Source of the DNA: a virus
Lineage: Duplodnaviria > Heunggongvirae > Uroviricota > Caudoviricetes
DNA: 30,976 nucleotides
IMG/VR virus record: IMGVR_UViG_3300030444_000240
Direction: 5' to 3' (one strand)
The notes beneath the pieces are model-generated. The model was not told the origin of the DNA. It worked only from the letters and a program-made list of their open reading frames with translations, and searched no databases. The position numbers and the translations under genes were made by a program. This document shows, piece by piece, positions 3,268 to 29,491 of the stretch (positions are counted from its first letter, which is position 1; each line of letters opens with the position of its first letter).

Positions 3268-3838
3268 TGGCATTCAGAATGAGTGAACAACCACGGACCA
3301 TAAAAATTTATAATCTGCTGGCCGGAACTAATGAATTTATTGGTGAAGGTGACGCATATATTCCACCTCATACAGGTCTGCCTGCAAACAGTACCGATAT
3401 TGCACNNNNNNNNNNNNNNNNNNNNNNNNNNNNNNNNNNNNNNNNNNNNNNNNNNNNNNNNNNNNNNNNNCATCTCGTTGAAGATCATCGGGGTAAAACG
3501 GTTTATGACGTGGCTTCCGGCGACGCGTTATTTATTTCTGAACTCGGACCGCTACCGGAAAATGTTACCTGGTTGTCGCCGGGAGGGGAATATCAGAAGT
3601 GGAACGGCACAGCCTGGGTGAAGGATACGGAAGCAGAAAAACTGTTCCGGATCCGGGAGGCAGAAGAAACAAAAAACAGCCTGATGCAGGTAGCCAGTGA
3701 GCATATTGCGCCACTTCAGGATGCTGTAGATCTGGAAATCGCAACGGAGGAAGAAATCTCGTTGCTGGAAGCATGGAAGAAGTATCGGGTGTTGCTGAAC
3801 CGTGTTGATACATCAACTGCACCTGATATTGAGTGGCC
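3141..3838. repeat. Direct repeat copy 1 (stf 3' end plus tfa), about 700 bp, nearly identical by eye to 27794-28482
   Basis: Aligned by eye: tattggtgctcatacgcact... through ...gatattga(g/a)tggcc, with scattered substitutions. Copy 1 contains the N gap. Confidence 0.8.
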
Positions 3839-3860
3839 GATAATTCCTGTAACATCATAG
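3267..3860 (+). CDS. tfa: Tail fiber assembly protein (Tfa), copy 1; interrupted by an N gap
   Basis: [46 protein letters not shown] ... matches lambda Tfa as recalled; the ATG overlaps the stf stop (TAATG). Residues across 3406-3470 are unknown. Confidence 0.85.
3406..3470. other. Assembly gap or masked bases (65 N)
   Basis: Run of n characters in the sequence. Confidence 1.
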
Positions 3861-3972
3861 TCATTATTTATTTGTTTTGCTGACATGTTGTATACGACAA
3901 CGTGTCAGCAGTTTGACTGGTATTATAACGAATATATTGTAATGTTTTCTGGTGTTATTAATTGTTGTTTTA

Positions 3973-4926
3973 TTACCATATATCTATGGGTTTTGTTTTC
4001 TGCTCATCTAAACAAAATGCACAGATGTAAGCCCCCTTACTTCGGTTGTACTGAACCGTTTCTAAAGCAGAGTCAAGATGTTTACTATCAAAGTTCCAGC
4101 TTTTTTCCATAACAGAAACACATTTTCTGCAATAGAAACTTTCTTTTGAGTTAGTATCTCCTGAATCATTTTTAGTGTAGCCAAAGAATTTTTTTGCTGA
4201 TTCCTTTGAACATGCGGAAATGGCTGCAGTGAACTCATAATGAGTTTGAAGCATAGCCCATACAATACCTGAAAATTCTTCATCCTCGTCTTCATCTAAT
4301 CCTATATTAATGCCGCCAGAGGAATGTATTGCTTTATATTTATACCTATGCCATATCCAGTGTGCTGATTCAGTATTTAGATAGTTGTGAGCACGTACAA
4401 CTGATGTGAAAATTAGCTCTGGCATTATATCTGTTTTTTTATCAACCGTATGCATAAAACGATTTCTTAGAATGCGCATACTATTAAACCAAGTAATAAA
4501 GTCATCAGGCAGTGATTTAGAGGCGAAAGTATTATATACTTTAATTAAATCTTGGGCGTCTAATGTGTGGAAGTCTGAAAATGAAATGTTACCTTCACTA
4601 TCAGGTTTAGGTGTATTGCGAGTTGCATTCGTGATAAGTAGATAAGGTGATATTTCGACGATAAGTCCTTTTAGTCTGAATTCAATAGATTGAAGTATCA
4701 AATTAAAAGATGTAATCAATTTTGGTCTAGCAAATAACCAATAATGCTCTAAATTTTTAATATCTGATTCTGTATAGAATTCAGACGTTTTACAATAACT
4801 ATTCCAAAGGTTTATATCTCTGTAATCATAAGCTAAATCGGCAATTTTTTCCCAAGCCTCATTTACCATGTGGTCAGCCATTGTATAAAAATCAGTCTTT
4901 GTTGGAATGTCAGTTATCATTATCAA
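3973..4926 (-). CDS. Hypothetical protein with HEPN-like Rx4H motif and C-terminal CxxC...CxxC zinc-ribbon-like motif (candidate Abi-type protein)
   Basis: 317-aa ORF in AT-rich DNA just downstream of tfa. Contains RNRFMH (R-x4-H) in the middle and CRKC...CAFC near the C-terminus. No confident family assignment. Confidence 0.5.
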   Translation of the reverse strand: MIMITDIPTKTDFYTMADHMVNEAWEKIADLAYDYRDINLWNSYCKTSEFYTESDIKNLEHYWLFARPKLITSFNLILQSIEFRLKGLIVEISPYLLITNATRNTPKPDSEGNISFSDFHTLDAQDLIKVYNTFASKSLPDDFITWFNSMRILRNRFMHTVDKKTDIMPELIFTSVVRAHNYLNTESAHWIWHRYKYKAIHSSGGINIGLDEDEDEEFSGIVWAMLQTHYEFTAAISACSKESAKKFFGYTKNDSGDTNSKESFYCRKCVSVMEKSWNFDSKHLDSALETVQYNRSKGAYICAFCLDEQKTKPIDIW

Positions 4927-5157
4927 TCTACCTTTGGGTCTTTATTGTTGTCTATCAAGATATAATATTCAGGCTGGAGTGGCTAATGTTGATCTACTTA
5001 TTTTCTCCCGGTAAGTCAGTTTATCGCGATATAAGCCGCATTTGATTTTGGCGACTATGGTCGTGTTAGGTATGTATCTGGCGTGTTACTGCGCCAGATT
5101 AAATATAAACCAATAATATTAAAGGGTGTTACTCTCTTGACAGATTTAGGGAACAAA

Positions 5158-5393
5158 TCACTCGTCAGCTGACTCCCAAGTATCTTTCAGAGTTTCCTGA
5201 ACAAAAGTTTTAGCTGAATCTTTATCGGCGGTGCGCCTAACAGAAAAACCATCGTTGCTGGTGGCTTTTACGATCATCTCCACATCGTCATAATGCTCGC
5301 CAATGTATTGGGTTAATTCTTCCTTTAATGCGTCTACAGCGCCGTTTGGCATTTGGTCATTTTGTCTTTGGCTATGGAGATCTCAATACGCAT
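5158..5393 (-). pseudogene. dinI: DinI-family protein gene, apparently frameshifted near its 5' end
   Basis: ORF 5158-5352 ends ...[12 protein letters not shown] (DinI-like C-terminus). An upstream ATG at 5393 in another frame encodes [11 protein letters not shown] (DinI-like N-terminus) before a stop. A LexA box lies immediately upstream. Confidence 0.5.
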
Positions 5394-5406
5394 AACATTT
5401 CTTTTG

Positions 5407-5426
5407 TACTGCGTTTGTAGACAGTA
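5407..5426 (-). promoter_or_regulatory. Putative LexA (SOS) box upstream of the dinI-like gene
   Basis: TACTGCGTTTGTAGACAGTA fits CTG-N10-CAG with palindromic TACTG/CAGTA ends, 13 nt upstream of the ATG at 5393. Confidence 0.5.
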
Positions 5427-5634
5427 TTATTCTTATCTGTGTAAATAAACAGTATCAAGACTTCGTTTTAGCTGCATAAGAAAAAAGAGATGGATACATT
5501 CGGAAAGATTTTGATGGTGGTAGGCTAAGTGAATAGCCTAAAGGTGTTTTACCCCAATTATTCCCCGGTATTTCTCCGCATAAAAAACAATCATAAAAAC
5601 AACAGCCATAATAGGCTGGTTCTTAAGGGATTTT

Positions 5635-5674
5635 TGGTCCACGAGAGAATTTGAACCTCCGACCCCCGACACCC
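5635..5674 (-). other. tRNA 3'-end-like fragment (tRNA-Pro-like T-arm and acceptor, ending CCA); possible att remnant
   Basis: Reverse complement reads GGGGTCGGAGGTTCAAATTCTCTCGTGGACCA, resembling a tRNA T-loop and acceptor 3' end. No D-arm or anticodon arm upstream, and the T-stem pairing is imperfect. Confidence 0.3.
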
Positions 5675-5696
5675 CATAATGGTGTAATTAATCAGG

Positions 5697-6065
5697 TTAA
5701 ATATTTAGCAGATCCTCTACAATATCATTAAACCCAGATGCCTGTTTAGATACAGAATTGAATAAGTCTCTAAGTGCTTGTGTTTGCTCAAAAGTTTCCC
5801 AAAGTGTTTTATAACTTGGCGTTACAATTGCTAATACTAAGCCTTCCGCCCATGACCATTCATGTTCATCAAAATAGTAGCGATATTTTCTGCTGTATAT
5901 AACAAAATCCTTTTCCTTATATTTAGCATGAAACACAACTTGAATTATATCCTGTGTACCATTAACAAGGTTTTCAGGCGCATCAATTGCCATCCAATTT
6001 ATCATTTTTTGGACAGTTAACTTATTTAATGAAACAATTAGCTTTGTGGTTTTATCGTTATGCAT
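5697..6065 (-). CDS. Hypothetical protein (122 aa), second gene of a two-gene operon
   Basis: ORF in AT-rich DNA; its ATG lies 2 nt after the stop of the upstream ORF (TAAttATG). No recognisable motifs. Confidence 0.5.
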   Translation of the reverse strand: MHNDKTTKLIVSLNKLTVQKMINWMAIDAPENLVNGTQDIIQVVFHAKYKEKDFVIYSRKYRYYFDEHEWSWAEGLVLAIVTPSYKTLWETFEQTQALRDLFNSVSKQASGFNDIVEDLLNI

Positions 6066-6067
6066 AA

Positions 6068-6529
6068 TTAGTCCAGTTGCATATCTTTCACAATTTCGTT
6101 AACTCTTGAGTTGAGTATACTCAACTTCTCATAGAGCTTCCAGGCTTGGTCTTGGTCATTGATATTAATGGAGATTTCTTTTCTTCGAAAGATTCCTTTG
6201 GGTTTGACTTCATCAAAAAATATATCAATCTTTGAGCGTTCCTTGGTTGGAAGCCTGCTGAAAAGGCTTTCAGTTAGCACTGCACACTCAGTAAACTCCT
6301 TACGTATAAATTCTTTCTGAGTAACCCAGTCTCCAATAGCATCATTTATCAATGAGGCTTTTTTTTGAAGATTGCTATGGATTTCAGGTATTCGAACCTT
6401 GTTTCTGAGAGTGGCCTTCAATGAACGCGTCGTAAAAAAAAGTTTTACAGTTACAACAAAACCGACAATACCCGCTAGGGAGGATATGTCAGTTACCGTC
6501 TGTGATAGGGGCCAAGTCAGGATATCCAT
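6068..6529 (-). CDS. Hypothetical protein (153 aa) with one predicted N-terminal transmembrane helix, first gene of a two-gene operon
   Basis: Hydrophobic stretch SSLAGIVGFVVTVKLFF near the N-terminus; tightly coupled to the downstream ORF. Confidence 0.5.
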   Translation of the reverse strand: MDILTWPLSQTVTDISSLAGIVGFVVTVKLFFTTRSLKATLRNKVRIPEIHSNLQKKASLINDAIGDWVTQKEFIRKEFTECAVLTESLFSRLPTKERSKIDIFFDEVKPKGIFRRKEISININDQDQAWKLYEKLSILNSRVNEIVKDMQLD

Positions 6530-6559
6530 GATGAAAAATCCAATGCTTAAGTTGATACG

Positions 6560-6585
6560 AAAAAACCCGCATATGCGGGTTTTTT
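6560..6585 (-). terminator. Intrinsic terminator-like hairpin (bidirectional)
   Basis: A-run, cccgc-atat-gcggg stem-loop, T6 run. Confidence 0.5.
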
Positions 6586-6711
6586 CGTCGCTCGGGAGCC
6601 GCGGCTCCTTTGCGTATCCTTTTTTGTCTCCTCACCGTCTGGTCGGTGTCCTGCTGAGACTGCTAACTTCCTGTTTTTGTTGGTGTTGTCCTTACACCGT
6701 CCAATCATGAT

Positions 6712-6744
6712 TGGTGGAGCTGGCGGGAGTTGAACCCGAGTCCG
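6712..6744 (-). other. tmRNA (ssrA) 3'-end-like fragment; probable attachment-site core remnant
   Basis: Reverse complement GGACTCGGGTTCAACTCCCGCCAGCTCCACCA closely matches the E. coli ssrA 3' end as recalled (one mismatch). No tmRNA body upstream. Confidence 0.5.
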
Positions 6745-6816
6745 TATTTTTATAATTAGCTGAAATAAAACGATTAATACTAACCATTTTATTCTGCGGA
6801 TCTTTTGCGGCTCCTT

Positions 6817-7716
6817 TTATGTCTGGATGTGGTCGTCAACACATCCTCTTTTAAATACAGGCGCTTTTACCTTAGTTGGATCATCTGTTTTAAAGATTTT
6901 CAATCGTTCACTGAAGAACATTACCTCAGATCCTTTGTACCGATCTTGAGCACTGTAGTTTATTCCATATACTAATGATGATGTCTTATACATAGCTTGG
7001 ATCTCAGGAGTGTTATCGTAAGAAACAATCCAAGGTGTTTTAATATTATTCTGTACGACTTTTGCAACCCTAACATGATCATCATGATTATAATGGTTGA
7101 TATATAAACCTTTACCTTTTATGTAATAAGGTGGATCCAAATATGTTAATGAGTTTTGTGGCAATTGAATAACTATTTTTTTAATGAAATCAATTGCATC
7201 CATGTTATATAAATCTATTCTGTGACGATTTTCTGATATTTTATGGATTCGAGAAATCAAATCACTCTTATTATAGCGAGCGTCAAGCTTCCATTTCCCT
7301 TCTTGATTTTTACCGCCAATTACTCCACCTTTTAATATTCCAGAACGATTTGTTCTATTGAGAAAAAAGGTTGAGAAACCAATTGTTAAAAGATCATGGT
7401 CTTTAGGATTATTAATTATATCTTTCTGCCTAAACCATTCATCCATTGTAACTTCAGTTCTTTCAATTAAAGAACATAATTGATCTGCATGATTTAATAC
7501 ACTGTGCCAAAAAGCATAAACAGAAATATTAATATCATTAAGGATGATTTTTTCAGCTGCATTTAGATGTAACAGTTTCAATGCTAAACCAGCACCCCCA
7601 GCATATGGTTCGGCATAATGTATAGGCGAAAGATTATTTTCTTCAATAAGCCGAAGCATGAAATTTGCAAGCTTGCCTTTACCGCCAGGATAGCGAAGTG
7701 GGGTGTTAAAACGCAT
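6817..7716 (-). CDS. DNA N6-adenine methyltransferase, Dam/D12 class
   Basis: N-terminal RYPGGK, EPYAGGAG (AdoMet-binding motif I-like) and DPPY catalytic motif; 299 aa. Confidence 0.8.
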   Translation of the reverse strand: MRFNTPLRYPGGKGKLANFMLRLIEENNLSPIHYAEPYAGGAGLALKLLHLNAAEKIILNDINISVYAFWHSVLNHADQLCSLIERTEVTMDEWFRQKDIINNPKDHDLLTIGFSTFFLNRTNRSGILKGGVIGGKNQEGKWKLDARYNKSDLISRIHKISENRHRIDLYNMDAIDFIKKIVIQLPQNSLTYLDPPYYIKGKGLYINHYNHDDHVRVAKVVQNNIKTPWIVSYDNTPEIQAMYKTSSLVYGINYSAQDRYKGSEVMFFSERLKIFKTDDPTKVKAPVFKRGCVDDHIQT

Positions 7717-7750
7717 ATGATACCTCTAAATGTCAGATCTAAAGTATATC

Positions 7751-7789
7751 AAAAAAAGGGCTTTGTGGCCATCACATAAAGCCCTTTTT
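7751..7789 (-). terminator. Intrinsic terminator between the OLD-like gene and the MTase gene
   Basis: gggcttt-loop-aaagccc hairpin flanked by an A7 run and a T5 run; on the minus strand the stem is followed by a T-run. Confidence 0.6.
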
Positions 7790-7795
7790 AATCAA

Positions 7796-9529
7796 TTAGT
7801 TATCTGACAGATATGATGAGATGGTAGCAGAATCGACACCATGTCCACTTGTCATAATAACTTTAAGACTCTTTATTAGTTCATTCTTGAAGCTATCCGA
7901 TTGCACAGGATTTTTCTCGACCCAATATCGATATGGGTTATCTTTAACTCGCCCTTTTACTTGGGCCTGAAATTGAGTCGTATGTGCAAAATCTTTAAAC
8001 AGTTTTCTAACTATCCCGCCATGGTTTTTGTTAACTTTTTTATAATTATCTATAAGGATTTTTAAATCAATCGGAGCGTTACCAATCTTTAGCGTTGCAA
8101 TTATGTCTTTAGCTGTTTTCATAAAAACAGCTTTTGTAAATTTATTTTTATTTTCCCAATATGCATCATCAGGTGGTAAATTATATAAAAACTCAAAAAT
8201 CATTTGGTCTGGAGGTAAGGTGCTTGGAAGCAAACATAAGTTTTTTTCTTTTTTGGCTTTTTTTGCATTAGCACTATTGTCGTGAACAACATCACCGTCT
8301 AAGACGATCAAGCTTTTAGCTGTAAATTCTGGTATTTTTCTTGCCATTAAGTCAAGCATGGCAGAGCAGCTAATATTTATATTCCCTAATGGATTTAATA
8401 TTTTATTTATTTTTCGATCTGTTATCAATTGTTTGAAAAAGTCGAAACCTTCTTTGTCTTCAAAATATACATTTGCCTTTGGAAGACAAATGTCATCATT
8501 AATTTTTACAGTTTCAACATGTAAATCAGCGTGGATATCTGTCCATGAAAGATTATTCTTTGTTTTAATATCTCCATATGTGTCTGTAAGATATATTGTT
8601 TTAAAGCTATCACTATCTTGTTTTGAACGATTATAGATATCCTCTATTATTAATGGAGAGTGCGAGGTCATGATTATTTGCAGATCGTATTGTTTTGCTG
8701 CTTTAGTTAGAATATTAATTAGCTCTAACTGTGCAGCAGGGAAAAGACCTGCATCGGCTTCATCAATTAACAATATTCCGCCATGATAATCAGAATAAGT
8801 TTCCTTCAATCTTTTAAATGAAAAAATTGCTTGGATTAATTGTCCAACATTATCTTCACCAACAGATACTGATTGGTGATCATAATTGTCACCATGGACA
8901 ACCATTGAATCGATAGTACCTTTTGTTGCTGTTACTGAGCTTCCATTGTTTTTTAGTAAGAGTTGGTTACTCATCATTCTAATTTCATCAGAATTTTCAT
9001 TGATGTACTGAACATCCCGTGTTGAGTAATCAGTCCTTAATGTAATAGGAAGAAGTCGTGCTAAGCTTAAAAAAATAACAGGATGAGTAACGTTTCTACT
9101 TTGGTTTTTTTCCGGTATTGAATCATTTCCCCTGACTACAGGCCTTGATTTATCTCTGTCACTGTAGCTGTATAAACCTAATGTTAGTTTTTCAAGATGT
9201 TTGTTCGATGCACCATCATAGACACTAATTTTGACGTCCATTGAACCAGGAACATCAAATTGTTCTGAAAGCCTAAAATGTTCGCTGAAAGCTGACTTGA
9301 AGCTGCCATTTGTTAATGTTTTATATTGTGTTAAATCAGTCTCAGGGTTTTTGGTAAAGTCCTTTGTAAAGCTAAATATTTGGGCGATAATGCCAAGAAT
9401 TGTGGATTTAGATGTGCCATTTTTACCACAAATAACAGTTAGGCGAGAACCAAACTCGATGTTTATATTTTTCAGTCCGCGAAACTTCACAACATTTATA
9501 TTTTTTAGTTTGGTAATTTGATTTGCCAT
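7796..9529 (-). CDS. OLD-family ATP-dependent nuclease-like protein (ABC ATPase plus C-terminal Toprim-like domain)
   Basis: Walker A ICGKNGTSKST, Walker B ILLIDEAD, TSHSP motif, then C-terminal VYFEDKEGFDFF and LIVLDGD (DxD). Start chosen at MANQITKL (9529), which has a GGAG 9-13 nt upstream and a palindromic hairpin beyond it; the ORF track extends to 9580. Confidence 0.7.
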   Translation of the reverse strand: MANQITKLKNINVVKFRGLKNINIEFGSRLTVICGKNGTSKSTILGIIAQIFSFTKDFTKNPETDLTQYKTLTNGSFKSAFSEHFRLSEQFDVPGSMDVKISVYDGASNKHLEKLTLGLYSYSDRDKSRPVVRGNDSIPEKNQSRNVTHPVIFLSLARLLPITLRTDYSTRDVQYINENSDEIRMMSNQLLLKNNGSSVTATKGTIDSMVVHGDNYDHQSVSVGEDNVGQLIQAIFSFKRLKETYSDYHGGILLIDEADAGLFPAAQLELINILTKAAKQYDLQIIMTSHSPLIIEDIYNRSKQDSDSFKTIYLTDTYGDIKTKNNLSWTDIHADLHVETVKINDDICLPKANVYFEDKEGFDFFKQLITDRKINKILNPLGNINISCSAMLDLMARKIPEFTAKSLIVLDGDVVHDNSANAKKAKKEKNLCLLPSTLPPDQMIFEFLYNLPPDDAYWENKNKFTKAVFMKTAKDIIATLKIGNAPIDLKILIDNYKKVNKNHGGIVRKLFKDFAHTTQFQAQVKGRVKDNPYRYWVEKNPVQSDSFKNELIKSLKVIMTSGHGVDSATISSYLSDN

Positions 9530-9551
9530 GTTTCTATCTTGCTCCGTAAAA

Positions 9552-9570
9552 TGGCCACAAATTGTGGCCA
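9552..9570. other. Perfect 9+1+9 palindrome between the int 3' end and the OLD-like start
   Basis: tggccacaa-a-ttgtggcca; on the minus strand it is followed by ATTTTA. Could be the int terminator or a recombination or regulatory site. Confidence 0.4.
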
Positions 9571-9587
9571 ATAGTTTCATGCTTGGA

Positions 9588-10754
9588 TTATATTGTTATC
9601 TTCTTCAAGCTTGTTTGTCCATCATATTCCTTCAGATATGAGCCATAGTGCCTGAAAAGCATCTCAGGCCCTTTATGCCCCATTTGAGCTGCAAGCCAAA
9701 ACAGGTTTGCTCCCCGGCTGATATGTCTGGTGGCGAATGTATGCCTGGTTTGATATGGGTTTCTGTAACGAATACCTGCTTTTCGCAATGTTGGCACCCA
9801 TGCTTTTTTCCTAATTGCATCAGCACTTGCCCAGGGTTTATTGGTCTTTGGATCTTCAAAGACAGTAGCATCCTTCATGAATGTAAATGGCTTCTGGTTT
9901 ATCAACGCCAACATTGCTTCTTCAGTCAGTTCAACTTTACGGGTACCGGCTTTTGTCTTTGTTCCTTTGATAACTCCGACAACACTTGCGCTCTGAACAT
10001 GGGCTGTTTTTCCAACAAAGTCGATATCATGCCATCGTAGGGCACATAATTCAGAACTACGCAGGCCTGTATGTATGGCGAACCGGAACAGATTTTCCCA
10101 TTGTTTGTTTCCGGCTGCTGCTAGTAATGCATCAACTTCTGCTGGTGATAGCGGATCAACCACATAGCTGCTTTCTGCTTCTGACTTATCACTTTGGTAG
10201 CGCGAAGCAGTTACCAACGATACGGGGTTAATTTGAAGTACCCCATCGGTTACGGCTTCATCAAGTGCTGACCGCAGGAAAGATAACTGGTTGCGAATTG
10301 TTTTTAAGGTCGTTTTCTGGCTTTGAATCCACGCTTTCAGGATTGCTGGTGTTAATTCACTTGCAGGGCAAATGTGGAGTGAGGCTAACGCACTACGGCA
10401 TTTTTTATAACCACCAATCGTAGATGGTGAAAGTTTTCTCGTTTCGCAGATTTCAAGGTATTCGTCCAGGTACATTTTTACCGTTTTGCCTGCAGCAGCA
10501 TTACCAAAAATTTTCAAACGAGCAGAACGGGGAAAATATTCCGCATAAATGAATGTTCCCCTTTCGATCTTATTATGAATTTCGCCGAGTGTGCGCTCGG
10601 CGTATTTAATGTTCTTTGGTGTTACTTCCAGATTGGAAAGAGGCTCACGACATTTAACGCCTTTGTAGGTGAAAGTTATATTGATCGTTTCGCCCTGGCG
10701 GTGTTTCCTGATTGTTACGCCGCGCGGTAGTTTGAGCAGTTTTGTCTGGCCCAT
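9588..10754 (-). CDS. int: Tyrosine site-specific integrase
   Basis: 388 aa; C-terminal catalytic region with RHTFATRH (HxxR) and LFWLAAQMGHKGPEMLFRHYGSY (catalytic Tyr); N-terminal arm-binding-like segment. Confidence 0.9.
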   Translation of the reverse strand: MGQTKLLKLPRGVTIRKHRQGETINITFTYKGVKCREPLSNLEVTPKNIKYAERTLGEIHNKIERGTFIYAEYFPRSARLKIFGNAAAGKTVKMYLDEYLEICETRKLSPSTIGGYKKCRSALASLHICPASELTPAILKAWIQSQKTTLKTIRNQLSFLRSALDEAVTDGVLQINPVSLVTASRYQSDKSEAESSYVVDPLSPAEVDALLAAAGNKQWENLFRFAIHTGLRSSELCALRWHDIDFVGKTAHVQSASVVGVIKGTKTKAGTRKVELTEEAMLALINQKPFTFMKDATVFEDPKTNKPWASADAIRKKAWVPTLRKAGIRYRNPYQTRHTFATRHISRGANLFWLAAQMGHKGPEMLFRHYGSYLKEYDGQTSLKKITI

Positions 10755-29438: not shown

Positions 29439-29491
29439 NNNNNNNNNNNNNNNNNNNNNNNNNNNNNNNNNNNNNNNNNNNNNNNNNNNNN
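29439..29491. other. Assembly gap or masked bases (53 N)
   Basis: Run of n characters 18 nt after the tRNA fragment. Confidence 1.

What the first reader, a model, noticed from the sequence alone, without database searches (positions are those of the whole stretch)
3973..4926. HEPN-like (Rx4H) protein with C-terminal zinc-ribbon-like motif, directly downstream of tfa
This 317-aa AT-rich ORF has RNRFMH, which fits the HEPN R-x4-6-H RNase motif found in Abi-type proteins, plus CRKC-x28-CAFC near the C-terminus. The slot just downstream of tail fiber genes is a known moron and defense hotspot. A single short motif is weak evidence, so the call is tentative.
Basis: inference. Interest (0 to 1): 0.6.

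Follow-up and report, generated by a model that had tools for sequence, protein, structure and literature searches.

The report
Prophage solo HEPN RNase with zinc ribbon
This prophage gene encodes a previously undescribed single protein combining a HEPN-type RNA-cutting domain with a zinc-ribbon tail, most likely a stand-alone anti-phage "suicide" nuclease, though its function has not been tested.

Summary
The ORF is real. It sits tail-to-tail with tfa in the cargo slot between tfa and the ssrA attachment site of a lambdoid prophage.

The RNRFMH motif alone is chance-level (about 1 R-x4-6-H expected), but it holds across the family. Among 149 representatives, R152 and N153 are 100% conserved and H157 99%. 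A second HEPN signature, E80-x3-K84, and four Cys are also conserved.

The family has about 600 clusters across several phyla. It is always annotated "hypothetical", has no conserved partner gene, and usually lies in prophage cargo slots or defence islands.

Best reading: a solo HEPN RNase that acts as an abortive-infection effector, analogous to HepS, DARNA and ApeA but not homologous to them at sequence level. The fold is well supported. The defence role is inferred.

The parts
3973..4920 (-). CDS of the 315-aa protein (stop included), identical to RefSeq WP_000627053.1.
   Evidence: Searches show the ORF. Homologues start MI[TI]DIP. RefSeq annotates 948 nt in E. coli HS and in NZ_CP148393.1.
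4931..4935 (-). Shine-Dalgarno-like AAAGG, 10 nt upstream of the ATG at 4920
   Evidence: Read directly from the sequence. Inference only.
4378..4899 (-). HEPN-like helical core, residues 8-181: helix 1 (8-45), helix 2 (65-95), an insert (96-138, beta-hairpin plus short helix 122-132), helix 3 (139-157) and helix 4 (167-181)
4669..4683 (-). E80-F-R-L-K84, the E-x3-[KR] second HEPN signature in helix 2
   Evidence: E80 is 95% and K84 98% conserved in 150 aligned sequences (query plus 149 representatives). 145/149 keep [ED]x3[KR] together with RNx3H. The motif definition is in PMC3710099.
4450..4467 (-). R152-N-R-F-M-H157, the R-x4-H catalytic motif at the C-terminal end of helix 3. R149 lies one helical turn earlier.
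   Evidence: R152 and N153 are 100% conserved, H157 and R149 99%. The canonical location is given in PMC3710099.
4182..4359 (-). Helical linker region, residues 188-246. It includes the conserved W188/R192 and a low-confidence acidic loop at ~200-217 (GLDEDEDEEFSG) that is shortened in the Acinetobacter and other shorter (~300-310 aa) members of A1.
4012..4131 (-). C-terminal zinc-ribbon-like module, residues 264-303: C264-R-K-C267, a 32-residue spacer, then C300-A-F-C303, with beta-strands 289-292 and 297-300
   Evidence: The four Cys are invariant in A1 and present in 133/149 representatives; the rest are truncated. Members give weak zinc-ribbon Pfam hits.
3878..3910 (.). Inverted repeat (14-bp arms, 93% complementary, 5-nt loop) between the convergent stop codons of tfa (3860) and this gene (3973). 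Probably a bidirectional terminator.
   Evidence: I2. The consensus terminator scan did not call it because there is no T-run, so its function is inferred.

Best explanation
The gene encodes a stand-alone, prophage-borne HEPN-superfamily endoribonuclease with a C-terminal zinc-ribbon module. It most likely acts as a single-protein abortive-infection or superinfection-exclusion effector.

Proposed mechanism, step by step:
1. The N-terminal ~180 residues form a four-helix HEPN domain. Shown by structure prediction plus a fold search.
2. R152, N153 and H157 at the end of helix 3, together with E80 and K84 in helix 2, form a metal-independent RNase active site. As in other HEPN enzymes, this site is completed by homodimerisation. 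Inferred from the superfamily signatures; the residues are near-invariant.
3. No antitoxin or partner gene travels with it, so the protein is probably held auto-inhibited in the lysogen. Inferred by analogy with HepS and DARNA.
4. A cue from an infecting phage, either a protein or a nucleic acid, is sensed through the C-terminal helical and zinc-ribbon part and switches the nuclease on. Speculative.
5. Cleavage of tRNA anticodon loops or other cellular RNA stops translation and aborts the infection. By analogy only.

It belongs to a lambdoid temperate phage and lies in the variable cargo segment between tfa and the ssrA attachment site.

For: **Signatures defined in PMC3710099, all present:**
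- R-x4-H at the end of helix 3.
- N after the R.
- E-x3-K in helix 2.
- An insert between helices 2 and 3.

**Conservation.** 145/149 cluster representatives keep both motifs.

**Sequence-level echo.** HEPN_Swt1 is the most frequent Pfam family among members (11/29 and 12/106, best E 9e-5). HEPN_RiboL-PSP, Cthe2314, Apea and DUF4145 follow, and the matches (inspected for HEPN_Swt1 and HEPN_Apea) cover the motif region.

**Mobile and cargo context:**
- E. coli: tfa | gene | dinI(pseudo) | 2 ORFs | ssrA att.
- A closed 44.6-kb circular lambdoid phage record also carries it.
- Proteus: just after the prophage integrase.
- Acinetobacter: between prophage replication genes and late genes.
- Acidovorax: at a prophage end, after the lysis genes.
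- Rosistilla: inside a prophage-like element.
- Photobacterium: next to an integrase.
- 9 IMG/VR loci carry it.
- Rahnella: between an OLD-family ATPase-TOPRIM nuclease and a HEPN/Toprim-NTD1 protein.

**Solo status.** No neighbour is conserved across genera, and there is no tandem-repeat RNA-antitoxin array.

**Patchy distribution.** It is present in 15 of 5,426 complete E. coli genomes and is AT-rich.

**Precedents.** Solo HEPN defence proteins that cut tRNA anticodon loops are known: HepS (PMC13043305), DARNA/PD-T7-3 and ApeA.
Against: - No experiment or expression data exist. RNase activity, dimerisation, zinc binding and any phage phenotype are all untested.
- No curated profile matches. 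Pfam, NCBIfam, PADLOC 2.0 and PHROGs give nothing at or above threshold, and all HEPN Pfam hits are below the gathering score.
- Profile searches against PDB sequences find no HEPN protein.
- Foldseek against PDB and BFVD gives no significant hit.
- tblastn finds no copy in 50,697 GenBank phage genomes.
- In Pectobacterium the gene sits in a small chromosomal islet without obvious phage genes beside it.
- The promoter scan is uninformative, so expression in the lysogen is not established.
Confidence: 0.55

Rival explanations
1. It is the toxin of a cryptic toxin-antitoxin or addiction module that stabilises the prophage, rather than a sensor-effector of phage infection. The antitoxin would be a small unannotated protein or RNA, or a host factor.
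Against: No MNT or other partner is adjacent. No neighbouring ORF of 40 aa or more within 2.5 kb is conserved across genera. There is no tandem repeat array upstream. The motif is RNRFMHTV, not the RX4HXY of HepT. The gene keeps its C-terminal zinc module, which is not typical of minimal HEPN toxins.
Confidence: 0.1
2. It is an RNase that serves the phage's own life cycle or offence. Examples would be host RNA shut-off, processing of phage transcripts, or counter-defence such as destroying host guide or signalling RNAs. Under this reading it does not protect the lysogen.
For: The gene is carried by complete temperate phage genomes. In Acinetobacter prophages it is co-oriented with early and middle genes, between the replication and late modules. 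In E. coli it lies 230 bp downstream of an SOS-box-preceded dinI-like pseudogene, so it might be induced together with the prophage.
Against: Its position within prophages is not fixed: after tfa, after int, in the nin-like region, or after the lysis genes. It is rare among related phages (15/5,426 E. coli genomes and 0/50,697 GenBank phages), which is typical of accessory cargo rather than a life-cycle function. It also occurs in non-phage islands next to defence-type nucleases.
Confidence: 0.15
3. It is a catalytically inactive HEPN-fold protein that binds RNA, nucleotides or another protein as a regulator, like MtlR/YggD or the substrate-binding HEPN domains of nucleotidyltransferases.
Against: According to PMC3710099, the non-catalytic families are the ones that have lost Rx4-6H. 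Here R-N-x3-H and E-x3-K are kept in 145/149 divergent members.
Confidence: 0.07
4. The resemblance is fortuitous. It is an unrelated helical-bundle protein in which a short motif happens to occur.
Confidence: 0.03

Closest known systems
HepS (Gifsy-1 prophage 'HEPN solo' abortive-infection protein; PMC13043305, PDB 9oik)
DARNA / PD-T7-3 (ssDNA-activated HEPN tRNase; bioRxiv 10.64898/2026.02.22.705581)
   Different: The PADLOC library (models of known and candidate systems, in which I assume PD-T7-3 is included) does not match this protein at E<=1. The DARNA C-terminal domain is a ~300-aa Pds5-like helical repeat with no zinc module, and the protein is 456 aa and forms dodecamers.
Swt1-like / Abi2 clade of the HEPN superfamily (Pfam PF18731 HEPN_Swt1 and relatives; Anantharaman et al. 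2013, PMC3710099)
   Same: This is the best, and a recurrent, sequence-profile neighbour. The match covers residues ~98-166, which include the RN-x3-H motif. The 2013 survey lists bacterial Swt1-like HEPN domains fused to a zinc ribbon (Npun_R5629) as an 'active' architecture.
   Different: All inspected matches are below the Pfam gathering score (best 17.4 bits versus 27.5 among ten A1 members scanned individually; best E 9e-5 among distant members, bit score not shown). I could not show that Npun_R5629 belongs to this family. It is not among the 120 closest relatives of a Nostoc member, and the paper's alignments are not held.
HepT/MntA (type VII HEPN-MNT toxin-antitoxin; e.g. PDB 5yep, 7ae2, 8xdj, 7bxo)
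   Different: There is no adjacent MNT nucleotidyltransferase gene. The RX4HXY tyrosine that is AMPylated in HepT is absent (RNRFMHTV). This protein is more than twice as long, with extra helical and zinc-ribbon parts.
ApeA (Gao_Ape single-gene HEPN defence)
   Same: It is a single-protein HEPN anti-phage system that acts through RNA cleavage. A few family members give weak Pfam HEPN_Apea hits.
   Different: There is no PADLOC ApeA match. My recollection, not checked here, is that ApeA carries its HEPN domain at the C-terminus behind a large N-terminal domain. It has no Cys4 module.

Membership tests
HEPN superfamily | Four-helix up-down bundle resembling solved HEPN domains | tested here: met
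HEPN superfamily | R-x4-6-H motif at the end of helix 3 / start of the loop to helix 4, with a polar residue (N/D/H) after R | tested here: met
   R152-N153-x3-H157 closes helix 139-157, followed by loop 158-166 and helix 167-181. Conserved at 99-100%. Definition from PMC3710099.
HEPN superfamily | Second conserved acidic residue in helix 2, typically E-x3-[KR] | tested here: met
   E80-x3-K84 lies in helix 65-95 (95% and 98% conserved). 145/149 members keep both motifs. Spatial proximity to R152/H157 could not be measured because no coordinates were available.
HEPN superfamily | [quoted passage not shown] | tested here: met
   Residues 96-138 form a beta-hairpin-like element plus a short helix 122-132 (definition).
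HEPN superfamily | Homodimer forming a composite active site; metal-independent endoRNase activity | not testable with these tools
   Only single chains can be modelled here. No biochemistry is available.
Any curated HEPN family (Pfam HEPN_Swt1, RiboL-PSP, Cthe2314, Apea, DUF4145, Abi_2, HEPN; NCBIfam) | Profile match at or above the curated gathering score | tested here: not met
   The query has 0 Pfam or NCBIfam hits at E<=1. Members give only sub-threshold hits (best 17.4 bits against a cut-off of 27.5; best E 9e-5). This makes it a distinct family within the superfamily.
Zinc ribbon | Two CxxC knuckles on beta-hairpins that chelate one Zn | tested here: inconclusive
   C264xxC267 and C300xxC303 are invariant. 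Strands 289-292 and 297-300 lead into the second knuckle. Zinc-ribbon Pfam hits in members are weak. Metal binding and geometry were not verified. The 32-residue spacer contains two short helices, which is atypical.
HepT/MntA type VII toxin-antitoxin | Adjacent MNT nucleotidyltransferase antitoxin, and an RX4HXY motif with the AMPylated Tyr | tested here: not met
   The flanking genes are tfa and a dinI pseudogene. No neighbour is conserved. The motif reads RNRFMHTV.
HepS family | Sequence homology to Gifsy-1 HepS | tested here: not met
Known or candidate defence systems in PADLOC-DB 2.0 (assumed to include ApeA, PD-T7-3/DARNA, PD-T4-x, AbiD/F/J/U/V, the PDC candidates) | HMM match to a system component | tested here: not met
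   0 families at E<=1.
Type III (ToxIN/AbiF-like) RNA-antitoxin systems | Tandem direct repeats encoding the RNA antitoxin next to the toxin gene | tested here: not met
   There is no repeat array in 3800-5700 apart from a trivial 8-nt repeat inside the ORF.
Abortive-infection / anti-phage defence gene (functional class) | Reduces phage propagation when present; enriched next to other defence genes or in MGE cargo hotspots | tested here: inconclusive
   The context is supportive: prophage cargo slots in 7 genera, 9 IMG/VR loci, and a Rahnella locus flanked by OLD-TOPRIM and HEPN/Toprim-NTD1 genes. No quantitative enrichment statistic and no phenotype were obtained.

The most novel reading that the evidence does not exclude
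The about 600-cluster family is an undescribed, widespread single-protein immune sensor-effector. It is present in Proteobacteria, Cyanobacteria, Planctomycetes and Desulfobulbaceae. In this reading the C-terminal Cys4 zinc module(s) directly recognise a phage-specific nucleic acid or protein and allosterically open an N-terminal HEPN tRNase. Most members carry two zinc modules. The enterobacterial and Acinetobacter prophage clade is a trimmed one-zinc-module version that temperate phages carry to exclude competitors.
Probability: 0.4. Interest if true: 0.6.

Novelty: new variant of a known kind. Interest (0 to 1): 0.5.

Why it matters
If confirmed, this adds a new family with a new sensor module (zinc ribbon) to the small set of single-protein HEPN abortive-infection nucleases such as HepS, DARNA and ApeA. 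It is missing from Pfam, NCBIfam, PADLOC and functional PHROGs, so current defence-finder pipelines pass over it even though about 600 sequence clusters exist across several phyla. It would also show that the tfa-to-att segment of ssrA-integrating lambdoid phages is a defence cargo slot. The protein is compact (315 aa) and easy to test for how a HEPN RNase is kept silent without an antitoxin. If it shows no defence phenotype, it is simply one more hypothetical HEPN-fold prophage gene.

Tried and rejected
- **Curated profile libraries** (Pfam, NCBIfam, PADLOC, PHROGs) on the query: nothing usable.
- **Profile searches of PDB sequences** with both family alignments: only Cys-rich compositional hits (cytochrome c, C2H2 fingers, TRIM31), which I rejected as bias.
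- **tblastn against GenBank phages:** no match.
- **Checking whether the 'Swt1-like HEPN + zinc ribbon (Npun_R5629)' architecture of Anantharaman 2013 is this family:** the supplement is not held, and Npun_R5629 is not among the 120 best relatives of a Nostoc member. This remains unresolved.
- **Literature search for WP_000627053:** no paper.
- **Two-gene system with the PD-Lambda-5-like methyltransferase/ATPase pair at 6817-9580:** rejected. A 3' ssrA fragment at 6712-6745 separates them, so they belong to a different, tandemly integrated prophage. E. coli HS and NZ_CP148393.1 carry the gene without that pair.
- **Partnership with dinI, ORF122 or ORF153:** rejected as a conserved system. These co-occur only in the E. 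coli element, and dinI is frameshifted.
- **Type III RNA antitoxin:** rejected, because there are no repeats.
- **Promoter and terminator consensus scans:** not informative, with 5 promoter-like sites against 6.8 expected.
- **The search for related loci with the diverse alignment A3:** failed for lack of a conserved stretch. The closer alignment A1 was used instead.

Full report
**1. The observation**

An open reading frame runs from 4926 to 3973 on the minus strand (317 aa from a TTG). Every homologue begins MI[TI]DIP. RefSeq annotates the identical protein (WP_000627053.1) as 315 aa, so the real start is the ATG at 4920, with AAAGG 10 nt upstream. The ORF has 33.6% GC, against 52% for the neighbouring tail-fibre genes.

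RNRFMH is at residues 152-157, and the two CxxC pairs are at 264-267 and 300-303. The gene is next to tfa but convergent with it. The stop codons are 112 bp apart, with a 14-bp-stem hairpin (3878-3910) between them.

From composition, about one R-x4-6-H is expected in any protein of this size.

**2. Conservation**

A word-indexed search found about 40 clusters in Enterobacterales and Acinetobacter, all annotated 'hypothetical'. In their alignment R149, R152, N153, H157 and the four Cys are invariant.

An exhaustive HMMER search with that profile found 595 clusters at 50% identity (469 with E<1e-10). These are about 300-aa proteins. Named relatives retrieved with the A3 profile come from Cyanobacteria, Planctomycetes, Desulfobulbaceae, Vibrionaceae, Marinomonas, Acidovorax and Paraburkholderia, among others.

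In 149 representatives:
- R152 and N153 are 100% conserved, H157 and R149 99%.
- K84 is 98%, Q77 96% and E80 95% conserved.
- 145 keep both R-N-x3-H and [ED]-x3-[KR].
- 133 keep all four Cys; the others are fragments.
- 123 carry at least three further Cys after the fourth. This looks like a second zinc module, which the E. coli/Acinetobacter clade lacks.

**3. Fold**

I made two AlphaFold2 models, one from close homologues and one from 105 distant ones. Both are confident (pLDDT 87.7 / pTM 0.85 and pLDDT 89.1 / pTM 0.88) and share one topology:
- helices 8-45 and 65-95;
- an insert at 96-138;
- helices 139-157 and 167-181;
- further helices at 188-246;
- a C-terminal Cys4 module at 264-303 with a beta-hairpin.

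Foldseek is insensitive here. It gives nothing significant against PDB or BFVD, although its only good-TM hit is again a HEPN toxin.

**4. Match to the superfamily definition**

Anantharaman et al. 2013 (PMC3710099) define the active HEPN domain by the following features:
- a four-helix bundle with an insert between helices 2 and 3;
- R-x4-6-H at the end of helix 3 running into the loop to helix 4;
- a polar residue, mostly N, D or H, after the R;
- often an E-x3-[KR] in helix 2 lying next to the motif.

Each feature is present at the expected place: the insert at 96-138, R152-N-x3-H157 closing helix 139-157, and E80-x3-K84 in helix 65-95. I could not measure distances because model coordinates are not exposed, so proximity of the two motifs is inferred.

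At sequence level no curated model reaches threshold. However, the commonest weak Pfam hits among family members are HEPN_Swt1 (11/29 and 12/106 members, best E 9e-5), HEPN_RiboL-PSP, HEPN_Cthe2314, HEPN_Apea and DUF4145. Where inspected (HEPN_Swt1 and HEPN_Apea), the matches fall across residues ~98-166.

The protein is therefore a member of the HEPN superfamily but of none of its described families.

**5. Genomic setting**

Alignment with E. coli HS shows that window 6712-6745 is the 3' end of ssrA. Rfam gives a partial tmRNA hit there. The window therefore holds two lambdoid prophages integrated in tandem at ssrA. The left one ends ...stf, tfa | this gene | dinI-like pseudogene | ORF122 | ORF153 | att. 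The right one begins with a methyltransferase, an ATPase and int.

A closed 44.6-kb circular record (NZ_CP148393.1) is a complete lambdoid phage genome. It carries the same block between int/att and tfa, the counterpart of lambda's b region.

The gene is present in only 15 of 5,426 complete E. coli genomes and in no GenBank phage, but in 9 IMG/VR contigs.

Elsewhere it lies:
- just after a prophage integrase in Proteus;
- between the replication and late genes of Acinetobacter prophages;
- after the lysis genes at a prophage end in Acidovorax;
- inside a prophage-like element in Rosistilla;
- next to an integrase in Photobacterium;
- in a small chromosomal islet in Pectobacterium;
- between an OLD-family ATPase-TOPRIM nuclease and a HEPN/Toprim-NTD1 protein in Rahnella.

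Clustering all ORFs of 40 aa or more within 2.5 kb of the gene in 27 loci found no neighbour shared across genera. There is no tandem-repeat array of the type III antitoxin kind. The gene is a solo.

**6. Mechanism**

Shown: a HEPN fold carrying intact, strongly conserved catalytic-type motifs, plus a conserved Cys4 module; mobile, patchy, partner-less cargo of temperate phages.

Inferred: the protein dimerises through the HEPN domain to form a composite, metal-independent RNase site. It is held inactive in the lysogen, is switched on by a cue from an infecting phage sensed through the C-terminal helical and zinc part, and then cleaves tRNA or other RNA, aborting the infection.

The precedents are recent:
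- HepS of Gifsy-1 is a solo prophage HEPN protein. It rests as an inactive tetramer, is activated by tail-tip protein J and cuts tRNA anticodon loops.
- DARNA/PD-T7-3 has an N-terminal HEPN domain plus a C-terminal sensor, and is activated by ssDNA presented by phage SSB.
- ApeA is another single-gene HEPN defence.

None of these is detectably homologous in sequence to this family.

I put about 0.9 on 'HEPN-fold protein with a catalytic-type site', about 0.75 on 'active RNase', and about 0.55 on the full defence model.

**7. Rivals**

- A cryptic TA or addiction toxin (0.10). No partner was found.
- A phage life-cycle or offensive RNase (0.15). The variable position and rarity argue for cargo, but possible SOS-linked transcription from the LexA-box promoter of the upstream dinI pseudogene leaves room for this.
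- A non-catalytic HEPN regulator (0.07). The motifs are too well conserved.
- A chance resemblance (0.03).

**8. Novelty and score**

HEPN nucleases in prophage-borne abortive infection are a known kind. The 2013 survey even lists a Swt1-like HEPN fused to a zinc ribbon (Npun_R5629), though I could not link that protein to this family.

What is new is a sizeable family with its own architecture (N-terminal HEPN, helical linker, one or two zinc modules). It is absent from Pfam, NCBIfam, PADLOC and functional PHROGs, and I found no paper mentioning it. I rate it a new variant of a known kind, with interest 0.5. It is a good, cheap experimental candidate, but not surprising to a specialist, and its function is untested.

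Noticed in passing
window 6712-6745 (-), extended Rfam hit 6712-6814: This is a 3'-terminal fragment of ssrA (tmRNA), identical to the 3' end of the intact ssrA of E. coli HS except for one base. It marks the junction (att core) between two lambdoid prophages integrated in tandem at ssrA. ARAGORN calls no tmRNA because only the fragment is present.
   Followed up: yes
window 6817-7716 (-) and 7796-9580 (-), directly following int 9588-10754 (-): A D12-class adenine methyltransferase matches PADLOC PD-Lambda-5_B (E 5e-124). Beside it is a 594-aa ABC/AAA_15 ATPase (phrog_3940; its best PADLOC hits are PtuA/GajA-type ATPases, and PD-Lambda-5_A is not among the top 25). Together they look like a PD-lambda-5-like 'compacted RM+Abi' pair in the int-att cargo slot of the second prophage. 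In NZ_CP148393.1 the same slot holds ParA plus two hypothetical genes.
   Followed up: partly
window 5158-5393 (-), with 5409-5424 and 5437-5452: The DinI-like gene is frameshifted ([19 protein letters not shown], then continuing in another frame), and RefSeq also marks it as a pseudogene. Two LexA-box-like palindromes (CTGT-N8-ACAG, one perfect) precede it. An SOS-regulated promoter may therefore still fire towards the HEPN gene 230 bp downstream. An 8-bp-stem hairpin without a T-run lies between them (~5075-5098).
   Followed up: partly
window 5697-6065 (-) and 6068-6529 (-): Two tightly packed ORFs of 122 and 153 aa have no family in Pfam, NCBIfam, PADLOC or PHROGs. The 153-aa ORF has a hydrophobic N-terminus. 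They travel with the HEPN gene in E. coli HS and in the 44.6-kb circular phage record, next to the att site, but not in other genera. They may be a separate two-gene cargo module.
   Followed up: no
window ~5640-5680 (-): A tRNA-3'-end-like sequence (GGAGGTTCAAATTCTCTCGTGGACCA) lies between ORF122 and the dinI pseudogene. ARAGORN and Rfam do not call it. It could be a relic att site of an older insertion.
   Followed up: no
window 6556-6589: A perfect GC-rich hairpin flanked by an A-run and a T-run (AAAAAACCCGCATATGCGGGTTTTTT) lies just after ORF153. It looks like a bidirectional intrinsic terminator, and it is what produces the spurious weak Rfam Thr_leader, isrK and RsmY hits.
   Followed up: no
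window 3406-3470 and 29439-29491: There are runs of N (masked or unknown bases). The first lies inside the tail-fibre assembly gene tfa, so its translation shows a block of X.
   Followed up: no
L012 1197-2792 and 4145-5503 (Rahnella sp. AA, NZ_PITQ01000013.1): The Rahnella homologue of the HEPN-zinc-ribbon gene sits between an OLD-family ABC ATPase-TOPRIM nuclease and a protein with the HEPN/Toprim N-terminal domain 1. This is a small defence island.
   Followed up: partly
family alignment A3 (distant homologues P0041-P0189): Most distant members (123/149) extend beyond the fourth Cys with a further C...C...CLxCG module, a second zinc-binding unit. The enterobacterial and Acinetobacter prophage clade has lost it, and in most of the enterobacterial members (not the shorter Acinetobacter-type sequences) an acidic disordered loop (~200-217) is present.
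   Followed up: partly
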